Origin: an uncultured Spirochaetales bacterium
Lineage (GTDB): Bacteria > Myxococcota_A > UBA9160 > SMWR01
Assembly (NCBI GenBank): GCA_964649065.1
Contig: CAZYOL010000001.1
Span: forward strand, 1,752-65,751
Direction: 5' to 3'
DNA: 64,000 nt
Shown: piece after piece, positions 28,606 through 56,064 of the stretch
How the letters are laid out: each line of letters begins with the position of its first letter
Numbering within the stretch: the first letter of the stretch is position 1
Program-made: the position numbers and the translations under genes
Notes under the pieces: model-generated
Told to the model about the DNA's origin: nothing
What the model saw: only the letters and a program-made list of their open reading frames with translations
Database searches by the model: none

Positions 28606-30104
28606 CACAGCTCCTTCAGGACGTGATCCGCGACCCGCAGCGCGTTGGCCAGGATCGTCAGGCCGGGCCCGACGCCGAGGGAGGTGGGCATGAAGCTCCC
28701 ATCGACGGCGTAGACGTTGTCGTGTCCGTGCAGCCGACACTGGGCGTCGAGCACCGAGTGACGCGGGTCGCGGCCGAAGCGACAGGTTCCCACCTGGTGG
28801 CCGGCGTGGCCGTGTTCGTGCTGGGCGACGTTGCCCAGGGCCAGCCAGGCCCCGGCCCGGCGCAGGCTGTGCTGCAGGCGACGCGTCAGCCAGCGGGCGC
28901 GGAAGACGTCGTAGGGATGGAAGCGGCGGTCGAGGCGGATGCGGCCGCCCTCACCCAGCCGGACCCGGTTGCCCGACTGCGGCAGATCCTCCACGGAGGC
29001 GACGAAGAGCAGGGCCCGGGCGTGGATCGCGCGCGCCAGCGGCATCGGGAAGGGAATGCCCGAGTGCTTGCGCACCGCCAGCGGACCGGGGATCGGAATG
29101 CTCTGGGCGTAGCCCAGCTTGTGCGGAAAGCTCTCGTCTCCCAGATAGAAGTCGGAGACGCCCAGCTCCTTGATGAAGGTCTCCGCGGTCCCGATCGGAG
29201 CCGGGAAGACGCCGACCGGGGCCGCCCCCAGGTGGGTCATGTGATTGCGGCCGAGCTGGTCGCTGCCCCCTCCCAGGCCCGAGCGCTCGAGCAGGATCGG
29301 AGTGCCCAGCGCGCCGGCTCCCAGCAGGAAGACCTCGGCGCGCACGACCTCCACGGCTCCGGTGTCGCGGTGGCGCAGCCGCAGCGAGCGGACGCGGCCC
29401 CGATCGCTCTGGAGCAGCTCGGCCTCGCAGCGCTCCCACAGGGTCAGCCTTCCGCCCGCCAGGGCCGGGGCGATCGCGTTCTTCCAGCTCGAGGCGCGCG
29501 AGCCGTTGGGGCAGAAGTAGCCGGGGCAGGTCGGGCAGCGCAGGCACCGCGACATGTCGATGGCCAGGGGCAGCGGGAAGGGCGCGAGCCCCTCGCGCCG
29601 GAAGGACTCCTCGAGCCTGCGCGAGATCGGCTCCGGCTCGGGCAGACGACCGACGTAGGGGCGCAATCGCCGGCCCAGGTGTGGGAGTGCGGCCCGGTGG
29701 TCGCCCGCGACGTGGTAGAGATCTTCGGCGCGATCGAAGTAGGGGGCCAGCTCGTCGTAGCCGATCGGCCACTCCCAGAGGTGTCGCTCCAGGTAGGGGG
29801 CGTAGAAGCGGCCCGGCTCGAAGTCGCTGCGGCCCGGGCGCAGCAGCACGGCCCCGAAGATCGCCGTGCTGCCCCCCAGCACGCCGCCCACCAGGGGTCG
29901 CTCGCGCCGGCCGTTCAGCACGACGGGGCGATCCTCGCAGGCTTCGCGGTCGACGAGCATGCGGCGCTCGTCCTGCCAGGCGCCGGCATCGCGGAAGCGG
30001 CCCCCGCGCTCCACGACCAGAACGCGGCGTCCCGCCCGAGCCAGCTCGGCGGCGGCGGCGCCTCCTCCGGCGCCGCTCCCGATCACCACCGCATCGAAGT
30101 CCAG
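28605..30104 (-). CDS. GMC family FAD-dependent oxidoreductase with internal CxxCxxCxxxxCP motif
   Basis: FDAVVIGSGAGGGAAAAELARAGRRVLVVERG. C-terminal GMC block HQVGTCRFGRDPRHSVLDAQCRLHGHDNVYAVDGSFMPTSLGVGPGLTILA. The 5' end is set at in-frame CTG 30104, which lies 9 nt after AGGAGG. The first GTG is at 30089. Confidence 0.85.
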   Translation of the reverse strand: MDFDAVVIGSGAGGGAAAAELARAGRRVLVVERGGRFRDAGAWQDERRMLVDREACEDRPVVLNGRRERPLVGGVLGGSTAIFGAVLLRPGRSDFEPGRFYAPYLERHLWEWPIGYDELAPYFDRAEDLYHVAGDHRAALPHLGRRLRPYVGRLPEPEPISRRLEESFRREGLAPFPLPLAIDMSRCLRCPTCPGYFCPNGSRASSWKNAIAPALAGGRLTLWERCEAELLQSDRGRVRSLRLRHRDTGAVEVVRAEVFLLGAGALGTPILLERSGLGGGSDQLGRNHMTHLGAAPVGVFPAPIGTAETFIKELGVSDFYLGDESFPHKLGYAQSIPIPGPLAVRKHSGIPFPMPLARAIHARALLFVASVEDLPQSGNRVRLGEGGRIRLDRRFHPYDVFRARWLTRRLQHSLRRAGAWLALGNVAQHEHGHAGHQVGTCRFGRDPRHSVLDAQCRLHGHDNVYAVDGSFMPTSLGVGPGLTILANALRVADHVLKEL

Positions 30105-30156
30105 GGTGCCTTCCCTCCTTCACTGGTCGGAGGTCGCCGACCCGAGGAGAAGAGCC

Positions 30157-39983: not shown

Positions 39984-39997
39984 CCTGCGCCCTCCCG

Positions 39998-40595: not shown

Positions 40596-41204
40596 TCAGC
40601 CCTCGTCGGGCACGGCGCGGATGGCCGCCGCGATCTCGCGGCTCAGCTGGCCGGCCACCCGGCTCATGGCGCCGACCGAGTCGGCGTAGTCGTCGCCGGC
40701 GCTCGGCTCCACCAGCCTCGTGCGCTGCATCGCCACGCGCTTTCTCGGGTCGTGGCTCCACAGCGTCCAGCGGGCATCCAGGGTCACCGAGCCGTCCTGG
40801 CCGCGCTCGAAGCGCTCGACGTCGATGGTCACCCGCAGGTCGTCCCGGGCCGACTCCTGCCAGGGGAAGGCCCGCACCTGGGCCTCGGGCAGCAGGGCAC
40901 TGAGGTTCTCGGTGATCACCCGCGCCAGGCCCCGATCCAGGTCTTCGCCCCAGCGGTGCTCGTCGGAGACGCTCAGCTCGTGATCGCCCACTCGCGTCAC
41001 CAGGCCGCTGCGGCGCAGGTAACGCGGCAGCTGGATCGGGCCGACGCCGATCGCGAGGCCGGGCTCCTCGGGCGCAGCCCCCTCGGCCCGGCTCACCGGG
41101 CCCAGCACGTACTCGCGCACCTGGATGCCCGGGCTGGCGCAGCCCCCCCACGGAGCCGCGAAGAGCAGGAGGGCCACGGCGCTGGCCATCGATCGAGGTC
41201 TCAC
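40596..41204 (-). CDS. PqiC/DUF330-type ABC-transport auxiliary lipoprotein
   Basis: GTG at 41204 (GTGA overlap) gives MRPRSMASAVALLLFAAPWGGC. VGPIQLPRYLRRSGLVTR, HRWGEDL, and VTIDVERFE...VTLDARWTL are typical of the DUF330 family. Confidence 0.8.
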   Translation of the reverse strand: MRPRSMASAVALLLFAAPWGGCASPGIQVREYVLGPVSRAEGAAPEEPGLAIGVGPIQLPRYLRRSGLVTRVGDHELSVSDEHRWGEDLDRGLARVITENLSALLPEAQVRAFPWQESARDDLRVTIDVERFERGQDGSVTLDARWTLWSHDPRKRVAMQRTRLVEPSAGDDYADSVGAMSRVAGQLSREIAAAIRAVPDEG

Positions 41205-42142
41205 GGGCTCTTCTCCGCTCCGCGGCCGAAGACCACGGAGCTCGGGTTGCGCTCGACGGTGTCGGCCAGCAGCCGGATGGCCCGCGCCGCCTCGGCCAGC
41301 TCTTCGAGGGTCTGGCCGAGCTGGTAGCGCAGCTCCGAGCCGGGCTGGACGGCGCCGTCCAGGCTGACCAGGGTCTCGCGGGCCTGGTCCAGGGCCAGCA
41401 CGGCCGACTCGGCGATCGGCCCGACCTCTGTATCGAGATCCTCGATCAGCGTCCTGGCGGAGCGCGCCGCCTCGCCCGTCTCGTGCACCGCGACGCGCAT
41501 CTCGTCCAGCGTCTCGTCCAGATCGGAGATGACGGCCTTCAGCTGGGGCGAGCCCACCAGGCTGCGGACGTCGGAGATCGCGGCGTCCAGGTTGTCGACG
41601 ATCCTCTCGAGCGGGAGCTCCTGCAGCCGGCTCATCAGGGCGCGCACCGTATTCGAGACCTCCTGGCTCACCGAGGGGATGGTGGGCAGCTCGCGGTAGC
41701 TCTCGTGGAGGCCGAAGTAGTGGATCTCGGTGTCCGGATAGAAGTCGAAGCCCACATAGAGCTGGCCGGTCACCAGGCTCTGGAGCTCCAATCGCGCCCG
41801 CAGGCCCTTCGCCAGCATGAGCTTGAGCCAACGGCCCCGCTCGACGTCGCGCCCCGTCCGCTTGAAGCGATCCGGGTCGACGTCGATTACCACCTCGTTG
41901 ACGATCTCCTTGCTTTCCTGGCTGGCCACGGCGTTCACCTCGACCACGGAGCCGACCTCCACCCCGCGCATCTTCACCGGCGAGGCCACCGTGAGCCCGT
42001 TCACCGAGCCGTCGAAGTAGAGCACGTAGCGCTCCAGCTGGCGCAGCCAGGTGCCGCTGCCCAGGGCGACCACGCCGACCAGCAGCAGGACGACGGCGCC
42101 CACCACGAAGCCCCCGACCAGGCCGGGGTTGGCCTTCTTCAC
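41201..42142 (-). CDS. MlaD/MCE-domain protein with long helical C-terminal extension
   Basis: GTG at 42142 (GTGA overlap). N-terminal TM helix, MCE core YVLYFDGSVNGLTVASPVKMRGVEVGSVVEV...ARLELQSLVTGQLYVGFDF, then about 150 aa of helical region. Confidence 0.88.
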   Translation of the reverse strand: MKKANPGLVGGFVVGAVVLLLVGVVALGSGTWLRQLERYVLYFDGSVNGLTVASPVKMRGVEVGSVVEVNAVASQESKEIVNEVVIDVDPDRFKRTGRDVERGRWLKLMLAKGLRARLELQSLVTGQLYVGFDFYPDTEIHYFGLHESYRELPTIPSVSQEVSNTVRALMSRLQELPLERIVDNLDAAISDVRSLVGSPQLKAVISDLDETLDEMRVAVHETGEAARSARTLIEDLDTEVGPIAESAVLALDQARETLVSLDGAVQPGSELRYQLGQTLEELAEAARAIRLLADTVERNPSSVVFGRGAEKSP

Positions 42143-42909
42143 GTCTCCCCCCGGTTCAGGAAGGTGCGCACCTTCGGGTTGTCGCTGCGATCGCGCAGCT
42201 CCCGCGGGTCGCCGAGAGCGATCTGGGTGCGGGCCTCCGCGCACAGGAAGACCGAGCTGTCGGCGATGGTGAAGATGCTCTGCAGCTCGTGGGTCACCAC
42301 TACGATGGTGATGCCGAGGCTGTCGCGCAGCTCGAGCAGCAGGTCGTCGAGGCGCCGCGAGCTGATCGGGTCGAGACCGGCGGAGGGCTCGTCGAAGAGC
42401 AGCACCTCCGGGTCGAGGGCCATGGCGCGGGCCACTCCGGCCCGCTTCAGCATGCCGCCGCTGACCTCCGAGGGATAGAAGTCCTCGAAGCCCGCCAGCC
42501 CGACGAGGGCCAGCTTGAAGGAGGCCACGTCGCGGATGCGCTCCCTGGAGAGATCCGTGTACTCGGTGAGGGGCAGGGCGATGTTCTCCGCCAGCGTCAT
42601 CGAGCTCCACAGGGCACCGGCCTGGTAGGCGACGCCGAAGCCTCGCTTGAGTCGCTCCCGCTCCTCGTCGCTGGCGGACCAGAAGCTCTCGCCCGAGAAG
42701 AAGACGTCGCCCCGGGCCGGCTGCCGCAGGCCGATCATGTGGCGCAGCAGGGTGCTCTTTCCGCAGCCACTGTCGCCCATGATGACGAAGATCTGGCCGC
42801 GCTGGATCTCGAAGCGCAGGTCGCGCTGCACGACGAAGGAGCCGTAGGCCATGGTCAGGTCGCGCACCTCGATGTGCGGATCCGAGGCCAGCTGCTCGGC
42901 GGCCGACAT
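42139..42909 (-). CDS. MlaF-like ABC transporter ATP-binding protein
   Basis: Walker A GDSGCGKST, signature VSGGMLKRAGVARA, Walker B VLLFDEPSAGLDP. Confidence 0.92.
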   Translation of the reverse strand: MSAAEQLASDPHIEVRDLTMAYGSFVVQRDLRFEIQRGQIFVIMGDSGCGKSTLLRHMIGLRQPARGDVFFSGESFWSASDEERERLKRGFGVAYQAGALWSSMTLAENIALPLTEYTDLSRERIRDVASFKLALVGLAGFEDFYPSEVSGGMLKRAGVARAMALDPEVLLFDEPSAGLDPISSRRLDDLLLELRDSLGITIVVVTHELQSIFTIADSSVFLCAEARTQIALGDPRELRDRSDNPKVRTFLNRGET

Positions 42910-42910
42910 C

Positions 42911-44062
42911 TCAGAGCCCCAGCACGTCGTAGACCACCGTGAGGATGCCGCAGGCCACCACGATGAAGACGATCCCGGTGACCACGGCGGAGGTCGTGGC
43001 CTGGCCCACGGCGGCGGCGCTGCGGCCGCACTGCATGCCGCGCAGGCAGCCCGTCAGCGCCACGATCACGCCGTAGATGGAGGCCTTGAAGAGGCCGCCG
43101 CCGAAGTCGCCGTAGTGGAGGGCTCCCTGCGTCTGGAGCAGATACTGGTCGAAGCCCACGCCGAGGGCCGAGATGCTGACCAGCAGGCCGCCGACGATGC
43201 CCATGACGCTGGCGTAGAGGGCCAGCAGCGGCATCATCAGCATCAGCGCCAGCATGCGCGGCAGCACCAGGTACTCGGTGGGATCGATGCCCAGGGTGCG
43301 CAGGGCATCGATCTCCTCGTTGACCGTCATGGTGCCGAGCTGCGCGGCGAAGGAGGCCCCGGTGCGCCCGGCCATGATGATGGCGGCCATGATCGGGCCC
43401 ATGTCCCGTGCCATGCCGATGCCCACCAGGTCGGCGACGTAGATCTCGGCGCCGAACTGGCGCAGCTGGATCGCCCCCATGAAGGCCAGGATCAGTCCCA
43501 CCAGGGCGCTGATCAGCGACACGATGGGCAGCGCCTCGGCTCCCACCTCCTGCAGGATCGTCCCGAACTCGGTGCGCGGGAAGGTGGCGCGGCCGCGCAG
43601 TAGGCGTCCGAAGGCCAGGGTGGCCTCGCCCAGGAAGACCAGGAAGTCGCGCGCACCCGAGCCGAGCTCTCCGGTGGCCTTGCCGATGCGCACGAGCAGG
43701 GGATCTCGCGCCCCGCCCCGCCCGGTGTCCTTCTTCTCGGGCACGGCCTCGGAGAGGGCGATCAGCCTGCGCACGCCCTCGGGCAGGCCCTCGCGCTCGG
43801 TCTCGACCTGGCGCTCGGCGCAGCCGCGCAGCACCCCCCGCAGCCAGGTGAGCAGACCCGTGTCCCAGGCCGTGACGCCGCTGGTCTCGAAGCGCAGGCT
43901 CGCCGGGCGCCCGGTAGCCACCTCGTCGAGGATCGGCTCCGTCGCAGGCAGCTCGTCGGCGAGGCGCCAGCTCCCCGAGAGCCGCAGGATCAGTACGCCG
44001 GCTTCGGCTCGCTCGATGCTCAGGTCCGTGGCGCTCAGCGGGCCCTCCTCGCTGGGTCCCAT
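42911..44062 (-). CDS. MlaE-family ABC permease with fused N-terminal STAS (MlaB-like) domain
   Basis: ATG at 44062. N-terminal region of about 120 aa VLILRLSGSWRLADELPATEPILDEV...SLRFETSGVTAWDTGLLTWL. MlaE core MARDMGPIMAAIIMAGRTGASFAAQLGTMTVNEEIDALRTLGIDP. Confidence 0.88.
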   Translation of the reverse strand: MGPSEEGPLSATDLSIERAEAGVLILRLSGSWRLADELPATEPILDEVATGRPASLRFETSGVTAWDTGLLTWLRGVLRGCAERQVETEREGLPEGVRRLIALSEAVPEKKDTGRGGARDPLLVRIGKATGELGSGARDFLVFLGEATLAFGRLLRGRATFPRTEFGTILQEVGAEALPIVSLISALVGLILAFMGAIQLRQFGAEIYVADLVGIGMARDMGPIMAAIIMAGRTGASFAAQLGTMTVNEEIDALRTLGIDPTEYLVLPRMLALMLMMPLLALYASVMGIVGGLLVSISALGVGFDQYLLQTQGALHYGDFGGGLFKASIYGVIVALTGCLRGMQCGRSAAAVGQATTSAVVTGIVFIVVACGILTVVYDVLGL

Positions 44063-44158
44063 ACTAGGCGCTTGGGGTCGCGACGGTAAGGCAAAATGGT
44101 CCTGCACCGGCTTGGGCGGCTCCGGAGAGGGCCGGCAGGGGCGCTGGGGCGCGATTCC

Positions 44159-46676: not shown

Positions 46677-47777
46677 CTACAGGGGCTTCCGCGCCAGCCA
46701 GTAGTGCATCGGCGTGAAGATCCCCTGGCGGGCGCCCTCGATCATGCCCTCTCCCAGGGCGCTCATCACGTCATTGTAGGCGCGGGCGGTCCCCGGCGAG
46801 ACCAGCCGCAGCTTCTCCGCCAGGGCCAGCCACCTCTCCCAGGAGAGCAGCGAGAAGGTGGAGTAGAGCACCCTGCGCACGCGGCTGGTCTCCTCGAAGA
46901 AGTAGTACCAGCGCTTGCCGCCAAGCCCGATGCCGAAGTCGTTGTGGTCGCGCTGGGTGACGATCTCGAAGCCCGCCCTCTTCAGGGCCTCGGTGAGATC
47001 CGACATCTTGACCATCCGGCAGACCCCGAGGCCGTACTCGATGAGGTGCCGGACCCGCCGGTGCTCCGGGTTCTCCGGATCGAAGCGCTCGGTCATCTCC
47101 CAGTTGAATCCCGTGAACTTCCCACCGGGCTTGAGCACCCGGAAGACCTCCCGGCAGAGCCTCTCGTAGTCCGGGGAGTGGGCCAGGGACTCGCACATGT
47201 AGACGCCGTCCAGGCTCTCGCTGTCGATCGGGGTCTCGTGGTAGTCGGAGCAGACCAGCTCGATCTGGTGGTCGATCCCGGCCTGCTCGTTCCACTTCTT
47301 CATCTGGGCCAGGTGGCCCTCGTTGATGTTCACCGCCTTGATTCGCGCGCCGGTGAACTGGGCGATGGTTCGCGTGGGTCCGCCCGTGCCGCAGCCGAAG
47401 TCCCCGATCGTCATCGTCTCGTTCGCACCCAGCGAGAGGGCCAGGTAGCACTGGTACATCTGCTGGCAGGCCGCGTAGGACTGCCACTTGCCATCCTCGG
47501 TGGGAAACAGGATTCCGGTGGAGTAGTGCGGACCCCAGACCAGGTGCAAGAGGTCCGTCGTCATGTTGTAGTAGTTCTTGACCAGGTCGAGGTAGCGATC
47601 CCGGCGCAGCTCCTTGAGGTTCCGCTCGTCGGCGTCCAGGTCCGTCGTGTCGTAGAGCTCCAGGTGGCGGTCCAGGTCCTCTTGCTTCACGTCCCGCGGG
47701 AGCCGGCTCTTCAGCCAGAGCCAAAGCCCGATCCCCAGGCCGAAGACTCCGATTGCCACCACGATCGCCACGTTCAT
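46677..47777 (-). CDS. sterol C-24-methyltransferase (ERG6/SMT1 family) homologue with N-terminal TM anchor
   Basis: GDFGCGTGGP (SAM site), VYMCESLAHSP, FRVLKPGGKF, NWEMTERFDPENPEHRRVRHLIEYGLG, ALKRAGFEIV, RWYY, and the C-terminal GIFTPMHYWLARKP. These are colinear with yeast ERG6 blocks. N-terminal TM helix MNVAIVVAIGVFGLGIGLWLWL. Confidence 0.88.
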   Translation of the reverse strand: MNVAIVVAIGVFGLGIGLWLWLKSRLPRDVKQEDLDRHLELYDTTDLDADERNLKELRRDRYLDLVKNYYNMTTDLLHLVWGPHYSTGILFPTEDGKWQSYAACQQMYQCYLALSLGANETMTIGDFGCGTGGPTRTIAQFTGARIKAVNINEGHLAQMKKWNEQAGIDHQIELVCSDYHETPIDSESLDGVYMCESLAHSPDYERLCREVFRVLKPGGKFTGFNWEMTERFDPENPEHRRVRHLIEYGLGVCRMVKMSDLTEALKRAGFEIVTQRDHNDFGIGLGGKRWYYFFEETSRVRRVLYSTFSLLSWERWLALAEKLRLVSPGTARAYNDVMSALGEGMIEGARQGIFTPMHYWLARKPL

Positions 47778-47903: not shown

Positions 47904-49004
47904 TCAGGCCGTGGTGCGGGCGAAGCGGTGGAAGCGGGCGCCCAGGAGCAGGCAGCCCGCGCCGTAGATCAGGAGCACGCCCAGGATCGGGGCGATCTCG
48001 ACCAGCGTGCGCTCGCGCAGGATCAGGTCCGTGACGCCCACCATCGCCCAGGCCGTCGGCGTGATCTGGGCGGCCTGCTGCAGCCACAGCGGCTCCTGGA
48101 AGAGGGGCCACCAGCAGCCCCCGACCGAGCAGACCAGCATCACCACAGTGAGTCCCAGTGGGATGATCTGCTCCCGGGAGCCGACGAAGGCCGACACCAG
48201 GAGGCTGAAGCCGGTCATGCAGAAGACGACGGCCACCACCAGCACCCCGAAGGTCGCGATGGAGGGACCCAGGGAGACGCCGAAGACCCAGTGTCCGAAG
48301 GCGAAGAGGACCGCCATCTGGGCGACCCCGATCAGGAAGCGGGCCAGCAGCTTGCCGCCCAGCAGCACCGCCCGCGGCACCGGCGCGATTCGCAGGCGGG
48401 TGAGCGTTCCCGAGTCCTCCTCCTCGCGCAGCCCGAAGGCCACGCCGAAGAGCACGCCCATCAGCACGAACATGACGCTGAAGCCCGGAACGTTCTGGTC
48501 GGCGGGGCGCGCGTTCTTGCGGGTGCCGGTGAGGTTGTCCTCTTCGATGTGCAGCAGCTCCTCGTAGAGCGGGTCCGCCACGGCCGCCGCCTCGCGGTCG
48601 GCCAGCAGCAGCAGGGCGCGTATGGTGTTGAGCTCCGGCCCCTTGGCCGGGTCGGTCAGCAGCGTGAGGGTCGAGGCCCGGTCGGTGAGATAGTTCTTGC
48701 TGGTTCCCTCGGGGATCACCAGGGCTGCCGCCGCCCTGTTCTCCCGGCCCACCCAGCGCTGGGCGGTCTCGAGATCGACCCGCTCGATCACCACGTGCTC
48801 CGCCAGCGTCTGGGCCAGCAGCTCGGGCACCGGGCCCCCGTCGTCGTCGACGAAGGGCAGCAGGATGAAGCCGCCCTCTCGTCCCCCCTGGGTGCCCGCC
48901 ACGATGGCGATCACCACCGCCGGCACCAGCACCGTGAACAGCAGGGCCGCGCGGTCGCGCAGGAAGAGGCGCAGATCCTTGACGGCGACGGTCCAGGCGA
49001 TCAA
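47904..49004 (-). CDS. ABC-2 type transporter permease
   Basis: TTG at 49004 (TTGA overlap). N-terminal TM helix LLFTVLVPAVVIAIVAG, large periplasmic loop, then 5 TM helices (FSVMFVLMGVLFGVAFGL...IAPILGVLLIYGAGCLLLG). Confidence 0.85.
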   Translation of the reverse strand: MIAWTVAVKDLRLFLRDRAALLFTVLVPAVVIAIVAGTQGGREGGFILLPFVDDDGGPVPELLAQTLAEHVVIERVDLETAQRWVGRENRAAAALVIPEGTSKNYLTDRASTLTLLTDPAKGPELNTIRALLLLADREAAAVADPLYEELLHIEEDNLTGTRKNARPADQNVPGFSVMFVLMGVLFGVAFGLREEEDSGTLTRLRIAPVPRAVLLGGKLLARFLIGVAQMAVLFAFGHWVFGVSLGPSIATFGVLVVAVVFCMTGFSLLVSAFVGSREQIIPLGLTVVMLVCSVGGCWWPLFQEPLWLQQAAQITPTAWAMVGVTDLILRERTLVEIAPILGVLLIYGAGCLLLGARFHRFARTTA

Positions 49005-49600
49005 GCCGGGTCCCGCTTCGCGGCCTTCCTGTTGGCGCGGCGCATGCGGTCGAGCAGCTCGGTGAAGGTCTGGGAGCGGAGCAGGCTGTCGAACTGCTCG
49101 CGGTAGTTCGCGACCAGGCTGATGCCCTCGACGACGATGTCGGTGGCGGTCCAGCGCTCTCCCTGGCGGTGCAGGGGGTAGTCCACCGAGTAGGCGTCCT
49201 TGGTGGTGCGGATGCGGGTGGGGACCAGGGCCCGATCGCCCTCCTGCCGCACCTCTCCGAAGCCGAAGACCGGCTTGCGGAAGAGCAGCAGGCGCCGCAG
49301 GTAGGCCCGCACCAGGACCTCGTCGAAGAGCTCCTGGAACTCCTCCTGCTCCGCCGGCTCGAGGCTCTCGAAGCGCTCGCCGAGGGCGCGCCGCCCCATC
49401 AGCTCCGTATCGAGCAGCTCGCGCGCCAGGTCCGAGAGCACCATCAGCTTCTCGTTGCGGCTGCGCTCGCTGGCGACCTCGGCCTGGGCCCGGTCGAGCA
49501 CGTCCTGGACCGAGCCGAGGGGGGTTCCGGCGTCGACCGCGAGGAGAAGGGGAACGAGGCATACAAGGGTCCACACGGCGATGCCGTGACATCGATGCAT
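49001..49600 (-). CDS. MlaC/Ttg2D-family periplasmic lipid-binding protein
   Basis: Signal peptide MHRCHGIAVWTLVCLVPLLLAVDA. LDTELMGRRALGERFESLEPAEQEEFQELFDEVLVRAYL...WTATDIVVEGISLVANYREQFDSLL follows the MlaC pattern. Confidence 0.85.
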   Translation of the reverse strand: MHRCHGIAVWTLVCLVPLLLAVDAGTPLGSVQDVLDRAQAEVASERSRNEKLMVLSDLARELLDTELMGRRALGERFESLEPAEQEEFQELFDEVLVRAYLRRLLLFRKPVFGFGEVRQEGDRALVPTRIRTTKDAYSVDYPLHRQGERWTATDIVVEGISLVANYREQFDSLLRSQTFTELLDRMRRANRKAAKRDPA

Positions 49601-49610
49601 GAGGCTCCTC

Positions 49611-50384
49611 CTAGTCCCGGAGTCCGTGGCCCGTGAGGTGCATGAAGAGGCGCTCGAGCTTGGGCACCACCCGGACGGGCTCCTCGGCGTCGATCAGCTC
49701 CATCAGCTCGGGCAGGGTCCCGGCGGCGATGATCTGCCCGCCGTCCAGGATCGCGATCCGATCGCAGAGCCTCTCGGCCTCCTCCATGTAGTGGGTCGTG
49801 TAGATCACCGTGGTGCCCTGGGCCGCCACGCTGCGCACCGCCTCGAAGAGGTTCTCCCGCGATTGCGGATCGACGCCGGCGGTGGGCTCGTCGAGCAGCA
49901 GCAGGCGCGGCTCGTGCACGAGGCTGCAGGCCAGGTTGAGGCGGCGCTGCATGCCGCCCGAGTAGATGCGCACGCGGTCGTGGCGGCGGTGGCCGAGGCC
50001 GACCATCTCGAGCAGCGCATCGGCCCGCTCCCGCGCCTGGGCCGCCGCCACCCCGTGGAGCCGCGCGAAGAACAGCAGGTTCTCCTCGGCCGTCAGCTCC
50101 GGGTAGAGGCTGATCTGCTGCGGCGCCAGCCCCACCCAGCGCCGCACGCGCTCCACCTCGTGGACCAGGCTGGCGCCGAAGACCTCCGCCTCACCGGAGC
50201 TGGGCGGCAGCAGGGTGGAGAGCATCGACAGGGTGGTCGTCTTGCCGGCGCCGTTCGGGCCCAGCAGCCCGAAGGTCTCACCGGCGGCAATCCGCAGGGA
50301 GATCCCCCGCACCGCCTCGAGATCTCCGAAGCGCCGCGCCAGATCGGTGAGGACGACCTCCTTGTCGCTGCCGGCGGCTCCCAC
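49611..50384 (-). CDS. ABC transporter ATP-binding protein (ABC-2/DrrA-like)
   Basis: Walker [10 protein letters not shown], signature [12 protein letters not shown], Walker [14 protein letters not shown]. Start set at GTG 50384. The ATG at 50441 (AAGGAG 11 nt upstream) would add 19 codons with atypically low third-position GC. Confidence 0.88.
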
Positions 50385-50460
50385 GCGGCGCGCATTATGG
50401 CGAGAAACTGGCTGAGACAGCAAGATAGACTCCGGTCTCATTTTCTGTCATGCTCCTTCC
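50385..50460. promoter_or_regulatory. divergent promoter/operator region (most AT-rich stretch of the window)
   Basis: Lies between the ABC operon (-) and tetR (+). Inverted repeat TGAGAC (50413..50418), 16-nt spacer, GTCTCA (50435..50440). Related half-site CTGTCA at 50445..50450. Confidence 0.35.
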
Positions 50461-51156
50461 ATGGCGAACCCGCCGTCCGTGGGGAATTCAACCCTGCGCG
50501 CGCCGACCGGCTCGGCCCCCGAGGACGAGGACCCGGAGCTGGCGGATCCGCAGCCGGCGCCGCGGACGCTCGTCATCGAGCGCCGGCTGAGCCGCGCCCA
50601 GGCGCGCCGGCGCGACCGGGTTCGGGCCTCGGCCCGGGCGTTGGCCGAAGCAGGGGGCTACGGGGCGGTCACCATGGACGCGGTCGCCTCCCGCTCCGAG
50701 GTCGCCCGCGCCACCATCTATCGCTACTTCAGCTCGAAGGACCACCTGCTCTCCGAGGTCGCCGTGGAGTGGGGCGAGACCCTGGCCGAGGCCCTGCGCA
50801 GCGAGGGCCCGCGCGGCGACGGCCCGGCGGCCCGCGTTGCCTCGGCCTTCCGCCGCGTGCTCGAGGCCGCCCTCGACTCGCCGCGCCTCACCGAGGCGGT
50901 CGGGCGCGCGGCGATCTCCTCGGATCCCGAGGCGCTGCGCTCCCAGGAGCAGTTCCTCTCGGTGCTCTCCGGTCTGGTCGGGGCCGCCCTGGGTGACGCC
51001 CCCATCCGCCGTCGCGCCGATCGGGAGAAGGTTCTGGGCAACGTCCTGTTCTCGGCCCTGGTCAACATCACCACGGGCCGTTTCGACGAGCGCCAGGCCG
51101 TGGAAATTCTCGAGACCGCTGCGGACCTGCTCTTCGCCGAGGAGGGAGCCGATTGA
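50461..51156 (+). CDS. TetR/AcrR family transcriptional regulator
   Basis: HTH block GYGAVTMDAVASRSEVARATIYRYFSSKDHLLSEV, followed by a helical ligand-binding domain. Confidence 0.9.
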   Translation: MANPPSVGNSTLRAPTGSAPEDEDPELADPQPAPRTLVIERRLSRAQARRRDRVRASARALAEAGGYGAVTMDAVASRSEVARATIYRYFSSKDHLLSEVAVEWGETLAEALRSEGPRGDGPAARVASAFRRVLEAALDSPRLTEAVGRAAISSDPEALRSQEQFLSVLSGLVGAALGDAPIRRRADREKVLGNVLFSALVNITTGRFDERQAVEILETAADLLFAEEGAD

Positions 51157-52259
51157 AGTTCGCGATGTTCTACGAGATTCCGGTGGCGAGGCCCTGGCAC
51201 GATCGCAGCGAGCAGCAGGCCTATCGCGAGGTGCTCGAGCAGGTCGTCTTCGGGGAGCAGATGGGCTTCGAATCGGTGTGGACCGTCGAGCACCACTTCC
51301 TCGAGGAGTACTCCCACTGCTCGAATCCGGAGGTCCTCTACGGTGCGATCGCCGCGTGCACCGAACGTATCCGCATCGGCTACGGCGTGCGCCTGGCTCC
51401 CAAGCCCTACAACCATCCGGTTCGCTCGGCCGAGTCGGCCGCCGTCCTCGACCTGCTCTCCGACGGGCGCGTCGAGTTCGGCACCGGTCGCTCCAGTACC
51501 CGCCTGGAGCTCGAGGGCTTCGGGGTACACCCCGACGAGACGCGCGAGATGTGGCTCGAGGCCGTCGGGCACATCGTGCACTGCTGGACCGAGGAGTACA
51601 ACCAGTTCCAGGGCCGGCACTGGCAGCTGCCGCGTCGCCGGGTCCAGCCCAAGCCCATCCAGCGCCCCCACCCTCCGATCTGGGGGGCGACGGGCAGCCC
51701 CGAAGGGCACCGCATGATGGGCGAGCTGGGCCTGGGCCTGCTCTCCTTCAGCGTGGGCACCTCTCCCGACCAGCTGACGGAGCGCCTCGAGCTCTACCGT
51801 GCCGGCCTGGCGCGCTGCCGGCAGCCTCTCGGGGCCGAGATCAACGATCGCGCCGCCTGCTTCACGATGGTGAACTGCGCGCCGACCCGAGAGGAGAGCT
51901 ACGAGGTCTCGCGCCGCTCCTTCGAGTGGTATCTGCGCCACTCGGCCGAGATGGTGGCCTCGGTGCCCGCCTGGCTCGACGAGATGAAGCAGGCCGAGCA
52001 CGGCAGCTACGCCTATCTCGACGAGGCCGCGCAGATGGTGGGCCAGAAGCTCCACGAGCTGGCCACGCTCGAGGCCCTGCTCGAGATGAACGCCTGCATC
52101 GCGGGCGACCCGGAGGAGGTGATCGAGCGCTGCCGGGCCTACCGGGCCACCGGCGCGGATCTCCTGCTCTGCCTCTTCAACCCCTACGACGTTCCGCACG
52201 AAAAGGTCATGCAGACCCTCGAGCTGTTCGGGAAGCACGTCATCCCCGCCTTCGACTAG
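51153..52259 (+). CDS. LLM-class (luciferase-like) flavin-dependent oxidoreductase
   Basis: TTG at 51153 (TTGA overlap, GGAGGGAG RBS). MKFAMFYE..., GFESVWTVEHHF, DLLSDGRVEFGTGRS, PHPPIWGA. Confidence 0.9.
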   Translation: MKFAMFYEIPVARPWHDRSEQQAYREVLEQVVFGEQMGFESVWTVEHHFLEEYSHCSNPEVLYGAIAACTERIRIGYGVRLAPKPYNHPVRSAESAAVLDLLSDGRVEFGTGRSSTRLELEGFGVHPDETREMWLEAVGHIVHCWTEEYNQFQGRHWQLPRRRVQPKPIQRPHPPIWGATGSPEGHRMMGELGLGLLSFSVGTSPDQLTERLELYRAGLARCRQPLGAEINDRAACFTMVNCAPTREESYEVSRRSFEWYLRHSAEMVASVPAWLDEMKQAEHGSYAYLDEAAQMVGQKLHELATLEALLEMNACIAGDPEEVIERCRAYRATGADLLLCLFNPYDVPHEKVMQTLELFGKHVIPAFD

Positions 52260-52268
52260 GAGAGAGCC

Positions 52269-53510
52269 ATGGCAGCACCGGTCCAGAGCTTCGACCGCAA
52301 CATCGTCCACCCCGACGTCTACGCCGACCACGGCTATCCCCACGACATCTGGACCTGGCTGCGCCAGAACGACCCGCTGCACCGCTGGGAGAGGACGGCG
52401 GGCCTGCCCTTCTGGGCGGTGACCAAGCGCGCCGACATCGTCGAGATCTCCACCCAGCCCGAGATCTTCCTGAACGGCCCCCGGCTGGTGATCTCCCACG
52501 AGCCCGAGGTCCGCAACGAGGAGTTTCCGCCGACGCTGATCCAGATGGACAACCCGCGGCACAGCGCCTACCGGAAGCTGGTGAGCCACCGCTTCAAGCC
52601 CGCTGGCCTGCGCCGCATCCACCACGACATCGAGCGGATCGGCAAGGAGATCGTCGACGCTCTGATCGAGAAGGAGGAGTGGAGCTGCGACTTCGTGAAG
52701 GAGGTCAGCGCTCCGCTGCCGATCGCCGTGATCGCCTGGCTGCTCGGCGTGCCCCGGGCCGACTGGGATCAGCTCTTCGACTGGACCAACCGGACCATCG
52801 GCTCGGCCGATCCCGAGTACCAGCGGGAGGGGCAGGACCAGCAGGCCACGGGCCGCGCCGCCATGATCGAGCTCTTCACCTACTTCAGCCAGCTGGTGGA
52901 GGAGAAGAAGAAGAATCCCTCGGACGACCTGATCTCGCTCTTCGCCACCGCGGAGATCGACGGCGAGAAGCTCGAGCCGATGGACGTGCTCGCCTGGTGC
53001 CTGATCATCGTCGTGGCGGGGAACGAGACCACCCGCAACGGGACCACCGGCGGAATGCTGGCCTTCATCGAGCACCAGGACCAGCTGCGCAAGCTCCAGG
53101 CCCAGCCGGAGCTGCTGCCCCTGGCCGTCGAGGAGGTCGTGCGCTGGACCAGCCCGATCATCCACTTCGCCCGCACCGCCACGCGCGACTACGAGCTGCG
53201 CGGCAAGACCATCCGCGAGGGCGATGCGCTGGCGCTCTTCTACCCCTCGGCCAACCGCGACGAGGAGGTCTTCGAGGAGCCGAATCGCTTCCGGATCGAC
53301 CGCAATCCGAATCGCCACGTCGGCTTCGGGGTGGGCGAGCACTTCTGTCTCGGCGTGCATCTGGCCCGGCTCGAGCTGGAGGTCGCCTACAAGCACCTGC
53401 TCCCGCGGATCGAGGAGATCGAGCTGGCCGGGCCCGTCGAGCGGCTGCGCTCGAGCCTGGTCGGGGGCGTGAAGCACCTGCCGATCCGCTACAGGCTGCG
53501 GCCCACCTAG
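52269..53510 (+). CDS. cytochrome P450 (class I bacterial, AGNETT I-helix)
   Basis: GGAGAG RBS. I-helix IIVVAGNETTRNGT, ExxR in EEVVRW, heme loop FGVGEHFCLGVHLARLE. Confidence 0.93.
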   Translation: MAAPVQSFDRNIVHPDVYADHGYPHDIWTWLRQNDPLHRWERTAGLPFWAVTKRADIVEISTQPEIFLNGPRLVISHEPEVRNEEFPPTLIQMDNPRHSAYRKLVSHRFKPAGLRRIHHDIERIGKEIVDALIEKEEWSCDFVKEVSAPLPIAVIAWLLGVPRADWDQLFDWTNRTIGSADPEYQREGQDQQATGRAAMIELFTYFSQLVEEKKKNPSDDLISLFATAEIDGEKLEPMDVLAWCLIIVVAGNETTRNGTTGGMLAFIEHQDQLRKLQAQPELLPLAVEEVVRWTSPIIHFARTATRDYELRGKTIREGDALALFYPSANRDEEVFEEPNRFRIDRNPNRHVGFGVGEHFCLGVHLARLELEVAYKHLLPRIEEIELAGPVERLRSSLVGGVKHLPIRYRLRPT

Positions 53511-55758: not shown

Positions 55759-56064
55759 TCAGCCGAAGAGCGATCGCGCGCCCGAGGCGTCGTAGCGGAG
55801 CAGCTTCATCTCCGCGACGCCGAACCCGCCCATGGCCTTCTGGAAGGCGGCCATGTGCGGGGCCTTGAAATGGGCATCCAGGGCCTCCTGCGAATCCCAG
55901 TGCTCGAAGACGTGGAAGACGCCCTCGTCGGCCAGGTCCGCGGAGAAGACGTAGGCCGAGCAGCCGCTCTCCTGGCGGGTGGCCTCCATCACGGCGTGGG
56001 CGGCGGCGATCGCCTCGGATCGCTTGCTCGGGTCGATGCGGATGTGGCCGGCGATGACGATCAT
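55759..56064 (-). CDS. ABM-domain (antibiotic biosynthesis monooxygenase / YgiN-like) protein
   Basis: MIVIAGHIRIDPSKR...ESGCSAYVFSADLADEGVFHVFEHWDSQEALDAHFKAPHM is the typical ABM ferredoxin-like fold pattern. Confidence 0.85.
   Translation of the reverse strand: MIVIAGHIRIDPSKRSEAIAAAHAVMEATRQESGCSAYVFSADLADEGVFHVFEHWDSQEALDAHFKAPHMAAFQKAMGGFGVAEMKLLRYDASGARSLFG

What the first reader, a model, noticed from the sequence alone, without database searches (positions are those of the whole stretch)
47904..50384. MlaC-type lipid carrier wired into an ABC-2 exporter operon instead of an MlaFEDB system
The operon encodes an ATPase (Walker [10 protein letters not shown], signature YSGGMQRRL), a secreted MlaC/Ttg2D-like protein (WTATDIVVEGISLVANYREQFDSLL) and an ABC-2 permease (one TM helix, a large periplasmic loop, then five TM helices). 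They are packed with a 10-nt gap and a TTGA overlap. MlaC normally partners with the MlaE/MlaD (MCE) machinery. Here it is genetically embedded in a DrrAB/YadGH-style ABC-2 pump, while the canonical MCE system nearby has no MlaC. MlaC-family proteins are already linked to polycyclic triterpenoid trafficking, since the hopanoid-associated HpnM belongs to this family. The next gene on the same strand is the sterol methyltransferase homologue. A pump-plus-carrier that extracts a hydrophobic lipid from the inner membrane and ferries it across the periplasm would be a new variation on envelope lipid transport.
Basis: partly seen in the sequence, partly recalled or inferred. Interest (0 to 1): 0.7.

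Follow-up and report, generated by a model that had tools for sequence, protein, structure and literature searches.

The report
MlaC carrier embedded in ABC-2 transporter
A three-gene unit that places a periplasmic MlaC-type lipid carrier between the ATPase and permease of an ABCA/ABCH-like ABC-2 pump is real and conserved in about ninety loci of uncultured bacteria, which points to an undescribed way of moving lipids across the bacterial envelope; the proposed sterol link rests on neighbours seen almost only in this one genome.

Summary
On the minus strand, 47904-50384 encodes an ABC ATPase, a secreted MlaC-fold protein and an ABC-2 permease, with a 10-nt gap and a TTGA overlap. This is not a one-off. 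Among about 90 related loci from metagenomes and MAGs, the ATPase lies directly upstream of the MlaC gene in 51 of 53 loci with enough sequence. A permease lies downstream in 54 of 59. One clade adds an MlaA outer-membrane lipoprotein directly upstream. No MCE/MlaD component is ever part of the unit. The permease model is closest to eukaryotic lipid exporters: ABCH-9C with ceramide, then ABCA3/7/4/1 and ABCG5/8. I found no paper describing this architecture. Best reading: a self-contained lipid shuttle in which an ABC-2 pump loads, or unloads, an MlaC-like periplasmic carrier. The sterol interpretation is weak. None of 27 related loci with downstream sequence has an SMT. Three close SMT homologues have no such transporter nearby. 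Different permease clades carry different lipid-tailoring neighbours. This window does have steroid-flavoured neighbours: a KstR-like repressor, a CYP125-family P450 (also found in two other loci) and the SMT. Cargo and direction remain inferred.

The parts
49611..50384 (-). ABC transporter ATPase (NBD) of the module. The start is ambiguous: GTG 50384, TTG 50423 (the public gene call) or ATG 50441.
   Evidence: ABC_tran 3.6e-33. Best NCBIfam match is the DrrA subfamily, 286.7 bits against a cut-off of 312. Walker A and signature motifs were read. An orthologue lies directly upstream of the MlaC gene in 51/53 loci.
49001..49600 (-). Secreted MlaC-family lipid-carrier protein (199 aa) with an N-terminal signal-like hydrophobic segment.
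   Evidence: PF05494 1.6e-34. AF2 model pLDDT 86.6. Foldseek against PDB gives MlaC/Ttg2D as the top 12, TM 0.65-0.85. HpnM 58.9 bits and MlaC 34 bits, both below cut-off. Hydrophobic residues 4-26.
47904..49004 (-). ABC-2 (type V fold) permease: TM1, a conserved periplasmic alpha/beta domain of about 125 residues, then five TM helices. Its TTG start overlaps the MlaC stop (TTGA).
   Evidence: ABC2_membrane_3 1.3e-33. AF2 pLDDT 83. Closest solved folds are ABCH-9C with ceramide (6e-12), then ABCA3/7/4/1, NosY and ABCG5/8. More than 767 homologues, the top 120 at 56-68% identity. Invariant CxxGGCWWP motif and a conserved loop.
50422..50451 (-). Sigma-70-like promoter match upstream of the ATPase, in the divergent intergenic region shared with the TetR gene.
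   Evidence: One site found against 0.1 expected. This is a consensus match only. No terminator-like site was found anywhere between the ATPase and the SMT.
46677..47777 (-). Sterol C-24 methyltransferase homologue with an N-terminal TM helix. It is the next gene on the same strand, 126 nt downstream. Its link to the module is unproven.
   Evidence: Methyltransf_11 plus Sterol_MT_C 3.7e-10. 29-35% identity to eukaryotic SMT/ERG6 over 80-94% of its length, and 50-73% to a small environmental clade. TM helix at 1-24. The adjacency is not conserved.
50461..51156 (+). Divergently transcribed TetR-family regulator, KstR-like. It is a candidate regulator of both operons.
   Evidence: TetR_N plus TetR_C_20. 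Best NCBIfam match is KstR, 93.8 bits against a cut-off of 280. The four best of six PDB matches are KstR, aligned over nearly the full length, about 1e-16.
51153..52259 (+). Luciferase-like monooxygenase in the divergent operon.
   Evidence: Bac_luciferase 5.3e-58. Other LLM subfamilies sit next to the module in L094 and L005, where TIGR03617 scores 488 bits.
52269..53510 (+). CYP125-family cytochrome P450 in the divergent operon.
   Evidence: PDB: CYP125MRCA 1.3e-116, P450terp 4e-83, Mtb CYP125 steroid C26-monooxygenase 1.7e-81. Orthologues at 65-70% identity lie divergent to the module in L056 and L063.
55759..56064 (-). Small ABM-type monooxygenase-like protein. It may belong to the same neighbourhood.
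   Evidence: 62% identical to the gene directly upstream of the module's ATPase in L009/L010, which is annotated PF03992 ABM there.

Best explanation
The three genes form one self-contained envelope lipid-transport module.

- **Pump:** a homodimeric ABC-2 permease (type V fold, ABCA/ABCH-like, with a conserved periplasmic domain) is driven by a DrrA-like ATPase. It takes an amphipathic membrane lipid out of the inner membrane.
- **Carrier:** the pump passes the lipid to the co-translated, secreted MlaC-fold protein. This protein shields the hydrophobic part and carries it across the periplasm to the outer membrane. In one clade an MlaA-type lipoprotein encoded next door is the likely outer-membrane partner.
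- **Difference from Mla:** the ABC-2 pump takes the place that the MCE complex MlaFEDB holds in the Mla pathway.
- **Cargo:** it is probably a tailored membrane lipid that differs between clades of the family. In this window it is undetermined. A sterol or steroid-like isoprenoid lipid is one candidate, not the default.

What is shown: the domains, the folds, the operon packing, the conservation of the gene order, the MlaA adjacency and the clade-specific neighbours. What is inferred: physical hand-off between pump and carrier, the export direction, and the cargo.
For: - Domains and packing are confirmed.
- The MlaC fold is confirmed.
- The permease is closest to lipid exporters that deliver to an extracellular acceptor: ABCH-9C with ceramide at 6e-12, then ABCA3/7/4/1 and ABCG5/8.
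- Gene order ATPase-MlaC-permease holds in 51/53 and 54/59 related loci.
- All five permease homologues whose contigs were looked up for the first time (P0018, P0101, P0036, P0078, P0011; 60-68% identical) have an MlaC gene directly upstream. The same holds for P0114, which lies on the already-known L002 contig.
- Pairwise distances of the three proteins co-vary, r = 0.55-0.87.
- MlaA (PF04333, 1.2e-60) lies directly upstream in L075/76, L080 and L085.
- No MlaD/MlaE is in any module locus.
- Permease clades track distinct lipid-type neighbour sets:
  - OlsE-like hydroxylases, a START-like protein and a GT1.
  - Ino1, an IMPase and KS/ACP/acyl-ligase genes.
  - A sulfotransferase.
  - An F420-dependent LLM.
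  - A CYP125-like P450.
Against: - There is no experimental or multimer-model evidence that the carrier docks on the permease.
- Direction is unknown. The CYP125/KstR neighbours here, and a FadL/TodX gene next to the module in L004, fit uptake equally well.
- Clade-specific neighbours could reflect inherited synteny within taxa and not cargo specialisation.
- L008 lacks an adjacent ATPase. L003 lacks both partners. L005 has the ATPase but no permease hit downstream.
- The related loci were retrieved by similarity to this MlaC subfamily or to its permease. The statistics therefore describe the subfamily, not MlaC proteins in general.
Confidence: 0.6

Rival explanations
1. One reading: a dedicated sterol or triterpenoid export system. 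The pump extracts a sterol, methylated by the neighbouring SMT, from the inner membrane, and the MlaC-like protein ferries it to the outer membrane.
For: - The SMT homologue is the next gene on the same strand, with no terminator-like site between them.
- The SMT is a genuine SMT-family member and is membrane-anchored.
- A KstR-like TetR and a CYP125-family P450 are transcribed divergently. That P450 recurs next to the module in L056 and L063.
- The carrier's best named relative is the hopanoid-associated HpnM.
- The fold relatives ABCG5/8, ABCG1 and ABCA1 move sterols.
Against: - 0 of 27 module loci with at least 1 kb downstream carry an SMT.
- 3 of 3 close SMT homologues have no ABC-2/MlaC neighbour.
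- No cyclase, epoxidase or demethylase was found in the window.
- The permease's nearest relatives (67-68% identity) sit in inositol/fatty-acyl contexts.
- The HpnM score is far below its cut-off.
- CYP125 and KstR are catabolic markers, not biosynthetic ones.
Confidence: 0.17
2. Retrograde or uptake system. The MlaC-like carrier collects a hydrophobic substrate at the outer membrane (via MlaA or a FadL-type channel) and delivers it to the ABC-2 transporter for import or flipping into the inner membrane. In this window that would feed a steroid or isoprenoid side-chain oxidation pathway.
For: - The Mla pathway with MlaA and MlaC is mostly regarded as retrograde (PMC10665443, PMC11131202).
- MlaA is adjacent in one clade.
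- FadL/TodX and a LolA-like DUF2092 lie next to the module in L004.
- KstR-like and CYP125-like neighbours here are typical of sterol catabolism.
- ABCA4, a fold relative, is an importer-type flippase (its direction is from general knowledge).
Against: - Nearly all type V / ABC-2 transporters, including the closest fold matches, export (general knowledge).
- Many neighbour sets are biosynthetic: Ino1, KS/ACP, glycosyl- and sulfotransferases, OlsE-like hydroxylases.
Confidence: 0.18
3. DrrAB-style drug or solvent efflux pump, with the MlaC-like protein as a periplasmic accessory that mops up hydrophobic xenobiotics. The TetR would be its drug-sensing repressor.
For: - The ATPase is closest to DrrA, and JGI names some homologues 'linearmycin/streptolysin S transport'.
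- A divergent TetR regulator is typical of efflux operons.
- MlaC proteins were first named toluene-tolerance proteins (one search hit names).
Against: - The permease scores only 35.6 bits on DrrB against a cut-off of 223.
- The closest folds are lipid exporters, not drug exporters.
- The MlaA partner and the lipid-tailoring neighbours do not fit drug efflux.
- The TetR is absent from most related loci.
Confidence: 0.04
4. Chance juxtaposition: the MlaC gene merely landed inside an ordinary ABC-2 operon and works with the MCE system 5 kb away.
For: An MCE system without its own MlaC lies at 40596..44107.
Against: - The gene order is conserved in about 90 loci, with stop/start overlaps.
- No MCE genes lie next to the module elsewhere.
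- The local MCE system has an elongated MlaD and a PqiC-like lipoprotein, a type that generally lacks MlaC (PMC10665443).
Confidence: 0.01

Closest known systems
Mla pathway (MlaFEDB - MlaC - MlaA/OmpC) of Proteobacteria
   Same: It uses a soluble periplasmic MlaC-fold carrier and is energised by an ABC ATPase. One clade of the new module has an MlaA lipoprotein gene directly upstream.
   Different: The inner-membrane partner is an ABC-2 / type V permease with its own periplasmic domain. There is no MlaE, no MCE ring (MlaD) and no STAS protein (MlaB). The carrier scores 34 bits on the MlaC equivalog model against a cut-off of 195.
Proposed hopanoid route HpnN (RND) - HpnM (MlaC-like) - HpnS (MlaA-like), bioRxiv 10.1101/2025.07.29.667474
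   Same: An MlaC-family carrier is detached from MlaFEDB and paired with a different inner-membrane transporter. HpnM is the carrier's best named relative. An MMPL-MlaC fusion was seen among distant homologues.
   Different: The partner there is a proton-driven RND/MMPL transporter, not an ABC-2 pump. The context there is hopanoid genes (shc, hpn), which are absent here. The HpnM cut-off is not met (58.9 against 160 bits).
Eukaryotic type V lipid exporters with an extracellular domain and a soluble acceptor: ABCH-9C, ABCA1/3/7, ABCG5/G8, ABCG1
   Same: These are the best structural matches of the permease. The topology is the same: TM1, a large exoplasmic domain, then five TMs. The logic of handing lipid to an extracytoplasmic acceptor (apoA-I, HDL, bile micelles) is from general knowledge.
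   Different: The bacterial system is a half-size permease with a separate ATPase. Sequence identity is only 10-18%. The acceptor is an MlaC-fold protein encoded inside the operon.
LolCDE-LolA and LptB2FGC-LptA
   Same: An ABC 'extractor' in the inner membrane hands a lipidic cargo to a periplasmic chaperone or bridge for delivery to the outer membrane (general knowledge).
   Different: The transporter folds differ (type VII and type VI), as do the carrier folds. There is no sequence relationship to the proteins here.
ABC-2 gene pairs downstream of mla operons in Bordetella (BP3762/3763) and Burkholderia (BCAL0307/0308)
   Same: This is a genetic association between Mla components and an ABC-2 transporter already noted in the literature (PMC9743053, PMC11131202).
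   Different: There the full MlaFEDCB set is present and the ABC-2 pair is an add-on of unknown role. Here the MlaC gene sits between the ABC-2 ATPase and permease genes and no MlaFEDB accompanies it. Homology between those permeases and this one was not tested.
BstABC sterol transporter of Methylococcus capsulatus (PMC11713862)
   Same: A three-part inner-membrane / periplasm / outer-membrane route for a sterol, encoded next to sterol-tailoring genes.
   Different: The proteins are unrelated: BstA is RND/MmpL-like, BstB is a PhnD-like binding protein and BstC is TatT-like. No ABC-2 transporter and no MlaC fold are involved.
NosDFYL
   Same: A bacterial ABC-2 (NosY) transporter that works with dedicated periplasmic and lipoprotein partners. 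It appears among the fold matches.
   Different: It serves copper/sulfur maturation of N2O reductase, not lipid transport. Its partners have different folds.

Membership tests
MlaC/Ttg2D family (Pfam PF05494) | Match to the family HMM above the gathering score | tested here: met
   119.5 bits against a cut-off of 26, E 1.6e-34, covering 162 of 166 model positions.
MlaC/Ttg2D family (Pfam PF05494) | MlaC fold: twisted beta-sheet plus helical bundle | tested here: met
   AF2 pLDDT 86.6. The 12 best PDB matches are all MlaC/Ttg2D, TM 0.65-0.85, 17-22% identity.
MlaC/Ttg2D family (Pfam PF05494) | Exported to the periplasm (signal peptide) | tested here: met
   A hydrophobic segment at residues 4-26 is followed by AVDA. 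Residues 1-20 are disordered in the model. No signal-peptide predictor was available, so this is a sequence-level call.
MlaC/Ttg2D family (Pfam PF05494) | Binds lipid in a hydrophobic pocket | not testable with these tools
Binding needs native MS or a crystal structure.
Canonical Mla pathway component (E. coli MlaC equivalog NF011697) | Score at or above the equivalog cut-off | tested here: not met
   34.2 bits against a cut-off of 195.
Canonical Mla pathway component (E. coli MlaC equivalog NF011697) | Encoded with MlaFEDB (MlaE permease, MlaD MCE protein) | tested here: not met
   The flanking genes are an ABC-2 ATPase and permease. The MlaE/F/D queries gave no MlaE or MlaD hit in any of 89 related loci (MlaF gave only cross-matches to the module's own ATPase).
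HpnM (TIGR03481, hopanoid-associated MlaC-like protein) | Score at or above the model cut-off | tested here: not met
   58.9 bits against a cut-off of 160.1. It is the best named hit but not a member.
HpnM (TIGR03481, hopanoid-associated MlaC-like protein) | Neighbourhood of hopanoid genes (shc, hpnN and others) | tested here: not met
   No SQHop_cyclase or MMPL hit among the window genes scanned, and no cyclase motifs in the window or loci. The motif scan is a weak test.
ABC-2 type transporter (Pfam ABC2_membrane clan; type V ABC fold) | Permease matches ABC-2 HMMs above the gathering score | tested here: met
   ABC2_membrane_3 117 bits (cut-off 31.6), ABC2_membrane 64.8 and ABC2_membrane_2 58.2.
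ABC-2 type transporter (Pfam ABC2_membrane clan; type V ABC fold) | Six TM helices with type V architecture | tested here: met
   AF2 model. Fold matches are ABCH-9C, ABCA3/7/4/1, NosY, ABCG, KpsM and TarG.
ABC-2 type transporter (Pfam ABC2_membrane clan; type V ABC fold) | Partner ATPase of the DrrA/NodI/GldA type | tested here: inconclusive
   The DrrA subfamily is the top hit at 286.7 bits, just below its cut-off of 312.45.
DrrAB daunorubicin-type efflux pump | Permease is a member of the DrrB subfamily | tested here: not met
   TIGR01247 drrB scores 35.6 bits against a cut-off of 223.
Sterol C-24 methyltransferase (SMT/ERG6) - the neighbouring gene | Methyltransf_11 core plus the Sterol_MT_C domain | tested here: met
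   71.1 and 40.2 bits, both above cut-off.
Sterol C-24 methyltransferase (SMT/ERG6) - the neighbouring gene | Full-length similarity to characterised eukaryotic SMTs | tested here: met
   29-35% identity over 80-94% of the length to fungal and other eukaryotic SMTs, E about 1e-45.
Sterol C-24 methyltransferase (SMT/ERG6) - the neighbouring gene | Sterol-binding 'region I' motif (YEYGWG, recalled from memory) | tested here: inconclusive
   The corresponding stretch reads LHLVWGPHY, so only the WG is kept. The motif is from memory and no curated alignment was used.
Sterol C-24 methyltransferase (SMT/ERG6) - the neighbouring gene | Occurs in a genome or cluster with oxidosqualene cyclase and other sterol genes (as for the functional bacterial SMTs in PMC10070321) | not testable with these tools
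   Only 64 kb of a 76.7-kb contig was available. None was found in the window. The attempt to fetch the rest of the contig failed.
KstR / CYP125 cholesterol-catabolic pair (neighbouring operon) | Regulator reaches the KstR equivalog cut-off; P450 groups with CYP125 | tested here: inconclusive
   KstR scores 93.8 bits against a cut-off of 280, although the four best of six PDB matches are KstR. The P450 matches a reconstructed ancestral CYP125 at 1.3e-116, and matches P450terp and Mtb CYP125 about equally at 1e-81 to 1e-83. No KstR-type operator lies in the promoter region.

The most novel reading that the evidence does not exclude
The module is a bacterial sterol or steroid trafficking machine. 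A type V ABC transporter, the fold of ABCG5/G8 and ABCA1, hands side-chain-modified sterols to an MlaC-fold periplasmic carrier. Control would come from a KstR-like, steroid-sensing repressor shared with a CYP125-type side-chain oxidase. That would make it a prokaryotic counterpart of ABC-transporter-to-lipoprotein sterol efflux. It would also be a third, unrelated solution to sterol/hopanoid transport besides BstABC and HpnN.
Probability: 0.15. Interest if true: 0.85.

Novelty: new variant of a known kind. Interest (0 to 1): 0.6.

Why it matters
MlaC-family carriers are currently understood only as clients of the MCE complex MlaFEDB. The RND transporter HpnN has recently been proposed as a second kind of partner. 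This finding shows that a whole, well-conserved subfamily is instead hard-wired to an ABC-2 / type V pump, sometimes together with MlaA.

- It gives envelope biologists a third way to load a periplasmic lipid chaperone.
- It offers a compact three-gene system for testing how type V ABC transporters hand lipids to soluble acceptors, which is the unresolved step for ABCA1 and ABCG1.
- The sub-clades sit next to different lipid-tailoring genes: OlsE-like hydroxylases, inositol-phosphate synthase, sulfotransferases, F420-dependent oxidoreductases and a CYP125-like P450. The family could therefore help assign cargo and outer-membrane destination to poorly known lipids of uncultured soil bacteria such as Binatia.
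- If the sterol reading held for this locus, it would bear on how sterol-handling bacteria place or acquire sterols.

Tried and rejected
1. **SMT synteny.** I looked for an SMT next to the module in 89 loci, and for the module next to three close SMT homologues. Both searches were negative.
2. **Sterol/hopanoid genes.** Pfam scans of about 30 window genes and a motif scan (DCTAE, DxDDTA, QW) of the window and all loci found nothing. The motif scan is a weak test.
3. **GMC oxidoreductase 28605..30119 as a cholesterol oxidase.** Rejected. It resembles glucose/fructose dehydrogenases.
4. **KstR operator in the TetR/ATPase intergenic region.** No inverted repeat was found. The only TnnAACnnGTTnnA match lies inside the LLM gene.
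5. **MlaA, START, FadL or sulfotransferase homologues in the window.** None found.
6. **Rosetta-stone fusions of MlaC with ABC-2 domains.** Among long distant homologues only SPOR, OmpA, MMPL and radical-SAM fusions appeared.
7. **Extending beyond the window to the rest of the 76.7-kb contig.** The look-up failed.
8. **AFDB fold search to find named or cultured relatives.** The library was unavailable.
9. **Organism identity.** No rRNA or tRNA is in the window. The genome scan returned only MAGs: Binatia, 'Proteobacteria bacterium' and unclassified.
10. **Literature.** No paper in the held library links MlaC to an ABC-2 operon. The Tripathi et al. analysis of mlaC-like copy number, cited in 10.1101/2025.07.29.667474, could not be read.

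Full report
**1. The observation**

The window is about 72% G+C. On the minus strand I confirmed three tightly packed genes.

- **ATPase, 49611..50384.** It carries GPNGAGKTT and YSGGMQRRL and matches ABC_tran at 3.6e-33. The public gene call starts at TTG 50423, and an ATG lies at 50441.
- **Gap.** Ten nucleotides holding a GGAGG separate the ATPase stop from the next start.
- **MlaC-like protein, 49001..49600, 199 aa.** It matches Pfam MlaC at 1.6e-34 (119.5 bits, cut-off 26). It has a hydrophobic N-terminus.
- **Permease, 47904..49004, 366 aa.** Its TTG start overlaps the preceding TGA (TTGA). It matches ABC2_membrane_3 at 1.3e-33.
- **Permease topology.** Hydropathy and an AF2 model (pLDDT 83) give one TM helix, a roughly 125-residue alpha/beta periplasmic domain and five more TM helices.
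- **SMT homologue, 46677..47777.** It follows after 126 nt, with Methyltransf_11 plus Sterol_MT_C. No terminator-like site lies in between.
- **MCE system, 40596..44107.** It comprises MlaE, MlaF, MlaD and an ABC_trans_aux lipoprotein, and has no MlaC.

**2. The carrier**

- An AF2 model built from eight homologues has pLDDT 86.6.
- Its 12 best PDB matches are all MlaC/Ttg2D structures, with TM 0.65-0.85 at 17-22% identity.
- Against NCBIfam it scores 58.9 bits on HpnM (cut-off 160) and 34 bits on E. coli MlaC (cut-off 195).

It therefore has the MlaC fold and belongs to the Pfam family, but it is a member of neither named subfamily. A search of 1.84 billion cluster representatives found 5618 MlaC-family clusters at E <= 1e-3, of which only 15 reach 1e-30. 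This is a small, distinct branch.

**3. The pump**

The permease model is closest to Tribolium ABCH-9C solved with ceramide (6e-12). Next come ABCA3, ABCA7, ABCA4, ABCA1, NosY, ABCG5/G8, ABCG1, KpsM and TarG. This is the type V ABC fold. Its nearest solved relatives are lipid exporters with a large exoplasmic domain that deliver lipid to an outside acceptor. The DrrB model is not met (35.6 against 223 bits). The ATPase is DrrA-like, just below cut-off. The periplasmic loop and a CxxGGCWWP motif are invariant in 30 homologues.

**4. Is the wiring conserved?**

Yes, and this is the main result.

- The permease has more than 767 homologues at E <= 1e-10, the best 120 at 56-68% identity.
- All five permease homologues whose contigs I looked up for the first time have an MlaC gene directly upstream, usually with a 4-nt overlap. 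The same is true of P0114, the permease on the already-known L002 contig.
- A scan of species-representative genomes with an MlaC alignment gave four loci, all MAGs: Binatia, 'Proteobacteria bacterium' and two unclassified.
- A metagenome scan gave 80 more loci.
- After removing duplicates, the ATPase lies directly upstream on the same strand in 51 of 53 loci with at least 500 nt upstream.
- A permease lies downstream in 54 of 59 loci: 47 on the same strand, and 7 as a convergent pair of paralogues.
- Pairwise distances of the three proteins co-vary, r = 0.55-0.87.
- The MlaE and MlaD queries gave no hit in any of these loci, so no MCE component is present.

In L075/L076, L080 and L085 an MlaA lipoprotein gene lies immediately upstream of the ATPase. 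It matches PF04333 at 1.2e-60, with the MlaA equivalog as its best NCBIfam hit. In that clade all parts of a carrier route are present except that an ABC-2 pump replaces MlaFEDB.

**5. Neighbours and cargo**

Clustering the permeases shows that neighbour sets follow sequence clades.

| Clade | Loci | Neighbours |
|---|---|---|
| A | L002, L016, L022, L023, L027, L033, L034, L044 | A GT1 glycosyltransferase (GtfB-like / sterol-glucosyltransferase-like); two FA_hydroxylase proteins whose best named relative is the ornithine-lipid hydroxylase OlsE (153 and 144 bits, below cut-off); a weak START-domain protein |
| B | L007, L021, L038, L043, L090, L095, L051 | Inositol-1-phosphate synthase and an inositol monophosphatase, next to KS/ACP/acyl-ligase genes |
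| C | L004, L006, L014, L017, L048, L064, L072; also L005, which has the sulfotransferase but no permease hit | Two convergent permeases; a conserved sulfotransferase in L005, L006, L064 and L072 |
| L094 and L005 | L094, L005 | An F420-dependent LLM; in L094 it overlaps the ATPase start |
| L009/L010 | L009, L010 | A small ABM protein upstream |
| L056 and L063 | L056, L063 | A divergent P450, 65-70% identical to the window's |

The window's permease forms its own cluster and is closest to clade B, at 67% identity.

The picture is a conserved transport cassette attached to varied membrane-lipid tailoring genes. An alternative remains open. The neighbour sets may simply be inherited synteny within lineages, and the cargo may be ordinary phospholipid throughout.

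**6. The sterol hypothesis**

The SMT is a real SMT-family protein.

- It is 29-35% identical to eukaryotic SMTs over most of its length.
- It is 50-73% identical to a small environmental clade that JGI calls sterol 24-C-methyltransferase.
- It has an N-terminal TM helix.
- Functional SMTs in uncultured bacteria are documented (PMC10070321).

The adjacency, however, is not conserved in either direction.

- 0 of 27 module loci with at least 1 kb beyond the permease have an SMT.
- Three close SMT homologues (58-69% identity) have no ABC-2/MlaC neighbour.
- No cyclase or other sterol-synthesis gene was found in the window.

The divergent operon at 50461..53510 does have a steroid flavour.

- The TetR's four best PDB matches (of six) are KstR, aligned over nearly the full length.
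- Its best NCBIfam hit is KstR, at 93.8 bits against a cut-off of 280.
- The P450 matches a reconstructed ancestral CYP125 at 1.3e-116 and M. tuberculosis CYP125 at 1.7e-81.
- That P450 recurs beside the module in two other loci.

These are catabolic markers, not biosynthetic ones. A steroid-like or isoprenoid cargo is therefore possible here, but the direction could then be uptake. I put the sterol-specific reading at about 0.15-0.2.

**7. Mechanism**

The best-supported model has three steps.

1. The ABC-2 permease dimer and its ATPase extract or flip a lipid from the inner membrane. By analogy with ABCH, ABCA and ABCG transporters, the lipid leaves through the periplasmic domain.
2. The pump hands the lipid to the MlaC-fold carrier made from the same transcript.
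3. The carrier crosses the periplasm to the outer membrane, with MlaA as the receptor where it is encoded.

What is shown: the folds, the operon structure, the conservation, the MlaA adjacency and the absence of MCE. What is inferred: docking, direction (export about 60:40 over import) and cargo.

The nearby MCE system has an elongated MlaD (314 aa) and a PqiC-like lipoprotein. This is a bridge-type design that generally does without MlaC (PMC10665443). The carrier is therefore not its missing part.

**8. Comparison with what is known**

- The system works like Mla, Lol and Lpt: an ABC extractor plus a periplasmic chaperone.
- It also works like the proposed HpnN-HpnM-HpnS hopanoid route (10.1101/2025.07.29.667474), with a different engine.
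- It is not a member of the canonical Mla system. The MCE partners are absent and the equivalog cut-off is not met.
- It is not HpnM (cut-off not met, no hopanoid genes) and not DrrAB (DrrB not met).
- The literature notes ABC-2 gene pairs downstream of complete mla operons in Bordetella and Burkholderia (PMC9743053, PMC11131202). That is a looser precedent for an Mla/ABC-2 connection.
- Known bacterial sterol transport (BstABC, PMC11713862) uses unrelated proteins.
- I found no paper in the held library describing an MlaC gene inside an ABC-2 operon. One cited analysis of mlaC-like copy numbers (Tripathi et al.) could not be read.

**9. Verdict**

The pump-plus-carrier idea holds. The sterol cargo is not supported.
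- Novelty: a new variant of a known kind.
- Interest: 0.6. Specialists in envelope lipid transport would find an MCE-independent, ABC-2-coupled MlaC system with an optional MlaA notable and directly testable. All functional statements remain computational.

Noticed in passing
window 50461-53510 (+): Divergent operon of a KstR-like TetR, a luciferase-like monooxygenase and a CYP125-family P450. The TetR's four best PDB matches (of six) are KstR. The P450 matches CYP125MRCA at 1.3e-116. The P450 recurs (65-70% identity) divergent to the transporter module in L056 and L063.
   Followed up: partly
window 51597-51610: Single match to the KstR-type palindrome TnnAACnnGTTnnA (consensus recalled from memory): TACAACCAGTTCCA. 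It lies inside the LLM gene and not in the promoter region. One match against 0.01 expected by shuffling.
   Followed up: no
window 40596-44107 (-): MCE transporter made of four parts: MlaE with an N-terminal extension of about 180 residues (STAS-like by eye), MlaF, an elongated MlaD (314 aa) and a PqiC-like ABC_trans_aux lipoprotein. This is a bridge-type system without MlaC or MlaA.
   Followed up: partly
window 55759-56064 (-); L009 8238-8543; L010 3189-3494: A small ABM-type protein in the window is 62% identical to the gene directly upstream of the module's ATPase in L009/L010. This suggests remnant synteny over the 50-56 kb region.
   Followed up: partly
window 39195-40115 (-); L007, L095, L021, L038, L043, L090, L051: The window encodes myo-inositol oxygenase 9 kb from the module. 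The permease's closest relatives sit between inositol-1-phosphate synthase and an inositol monophosphatase, beside KS/ACP/acyl-ligase genes. This may indicate an inositol-lipid connection.
   Followed up: no
L075/L076 1352-2281, L080 about 4097-4669, L085 about 821-1393: An MlaA lipoprotein gene lies directly upstream of the ABC-2 ATPase-MlaC-permease unit in one permease clade. That gives a complete MCE-free 'Mla-like' set.
   Followed up: yes
L033 3660-8145 (also L002, L022, L023, L034, L044): Clade A neighbours are two OlsE-like FA_hydroxylases, a protein with a weak START-domain hit (23.2 bits, cut-off 22) and a GT1 related to GtfB and to sterol 3-beta-glucosyltransferase. The lipid made is unknown.
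   Followed up: partly
L005, L006, L064, L072: In the clade with two convergent permease paralogues, a Sulfotransfer_3 protein (84-86% identical across loci) is conserved next to the module. An MBL-rhodanese protein lies upstream in L006 and L072. This hints at a sulfated lipid.
   Followed up: no
L094 7444-8463; L005 3119-4165: An F420-dependent LLM oxidoreductase (TIGR03617, 488 bits) overlaps the start of the module's ATPase in L094. Its 57%-identical orthologue flanks the module in L005.
   Followed up: no
proteins P0208, P0274, P0316, P0272, P0289, P0223, P0271, P0282, P0319: Distant MlaC-family proteins are fused to SPOR domains (six cases), OmpA, an MMPL fragment and a radical-SAM domain. 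The peptidoglycan-binding fusions suggest tethered, not shuttling, MlaC variants.
   Followed up: no
window 46677-47777 (-): The SMT homologue has a predicted N-terminal TM helix (residues 1-24). Its 'region I' reads LHLVWGPHY where the eukaryotic motif, recalled from memory, is YEYGWG.
   Followed up: no
L056 2679-3950 (-): The CYP125-like P450 next to the module in L056 is split into two adjacent in-frame ORFs (2679-3290 and 3291-3950). This means an internal stop codon: either a pseudogene or an assembly error.
   Followed up: no
window 57265-58548 (-) and 58238-59977 (+): The DUF1214 ORF and the FMO-like monooxygenase ORF overlap by about 300 nt on opposite strands as listed. At least one start codon is probably mis-assigned.
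   Followed up: no
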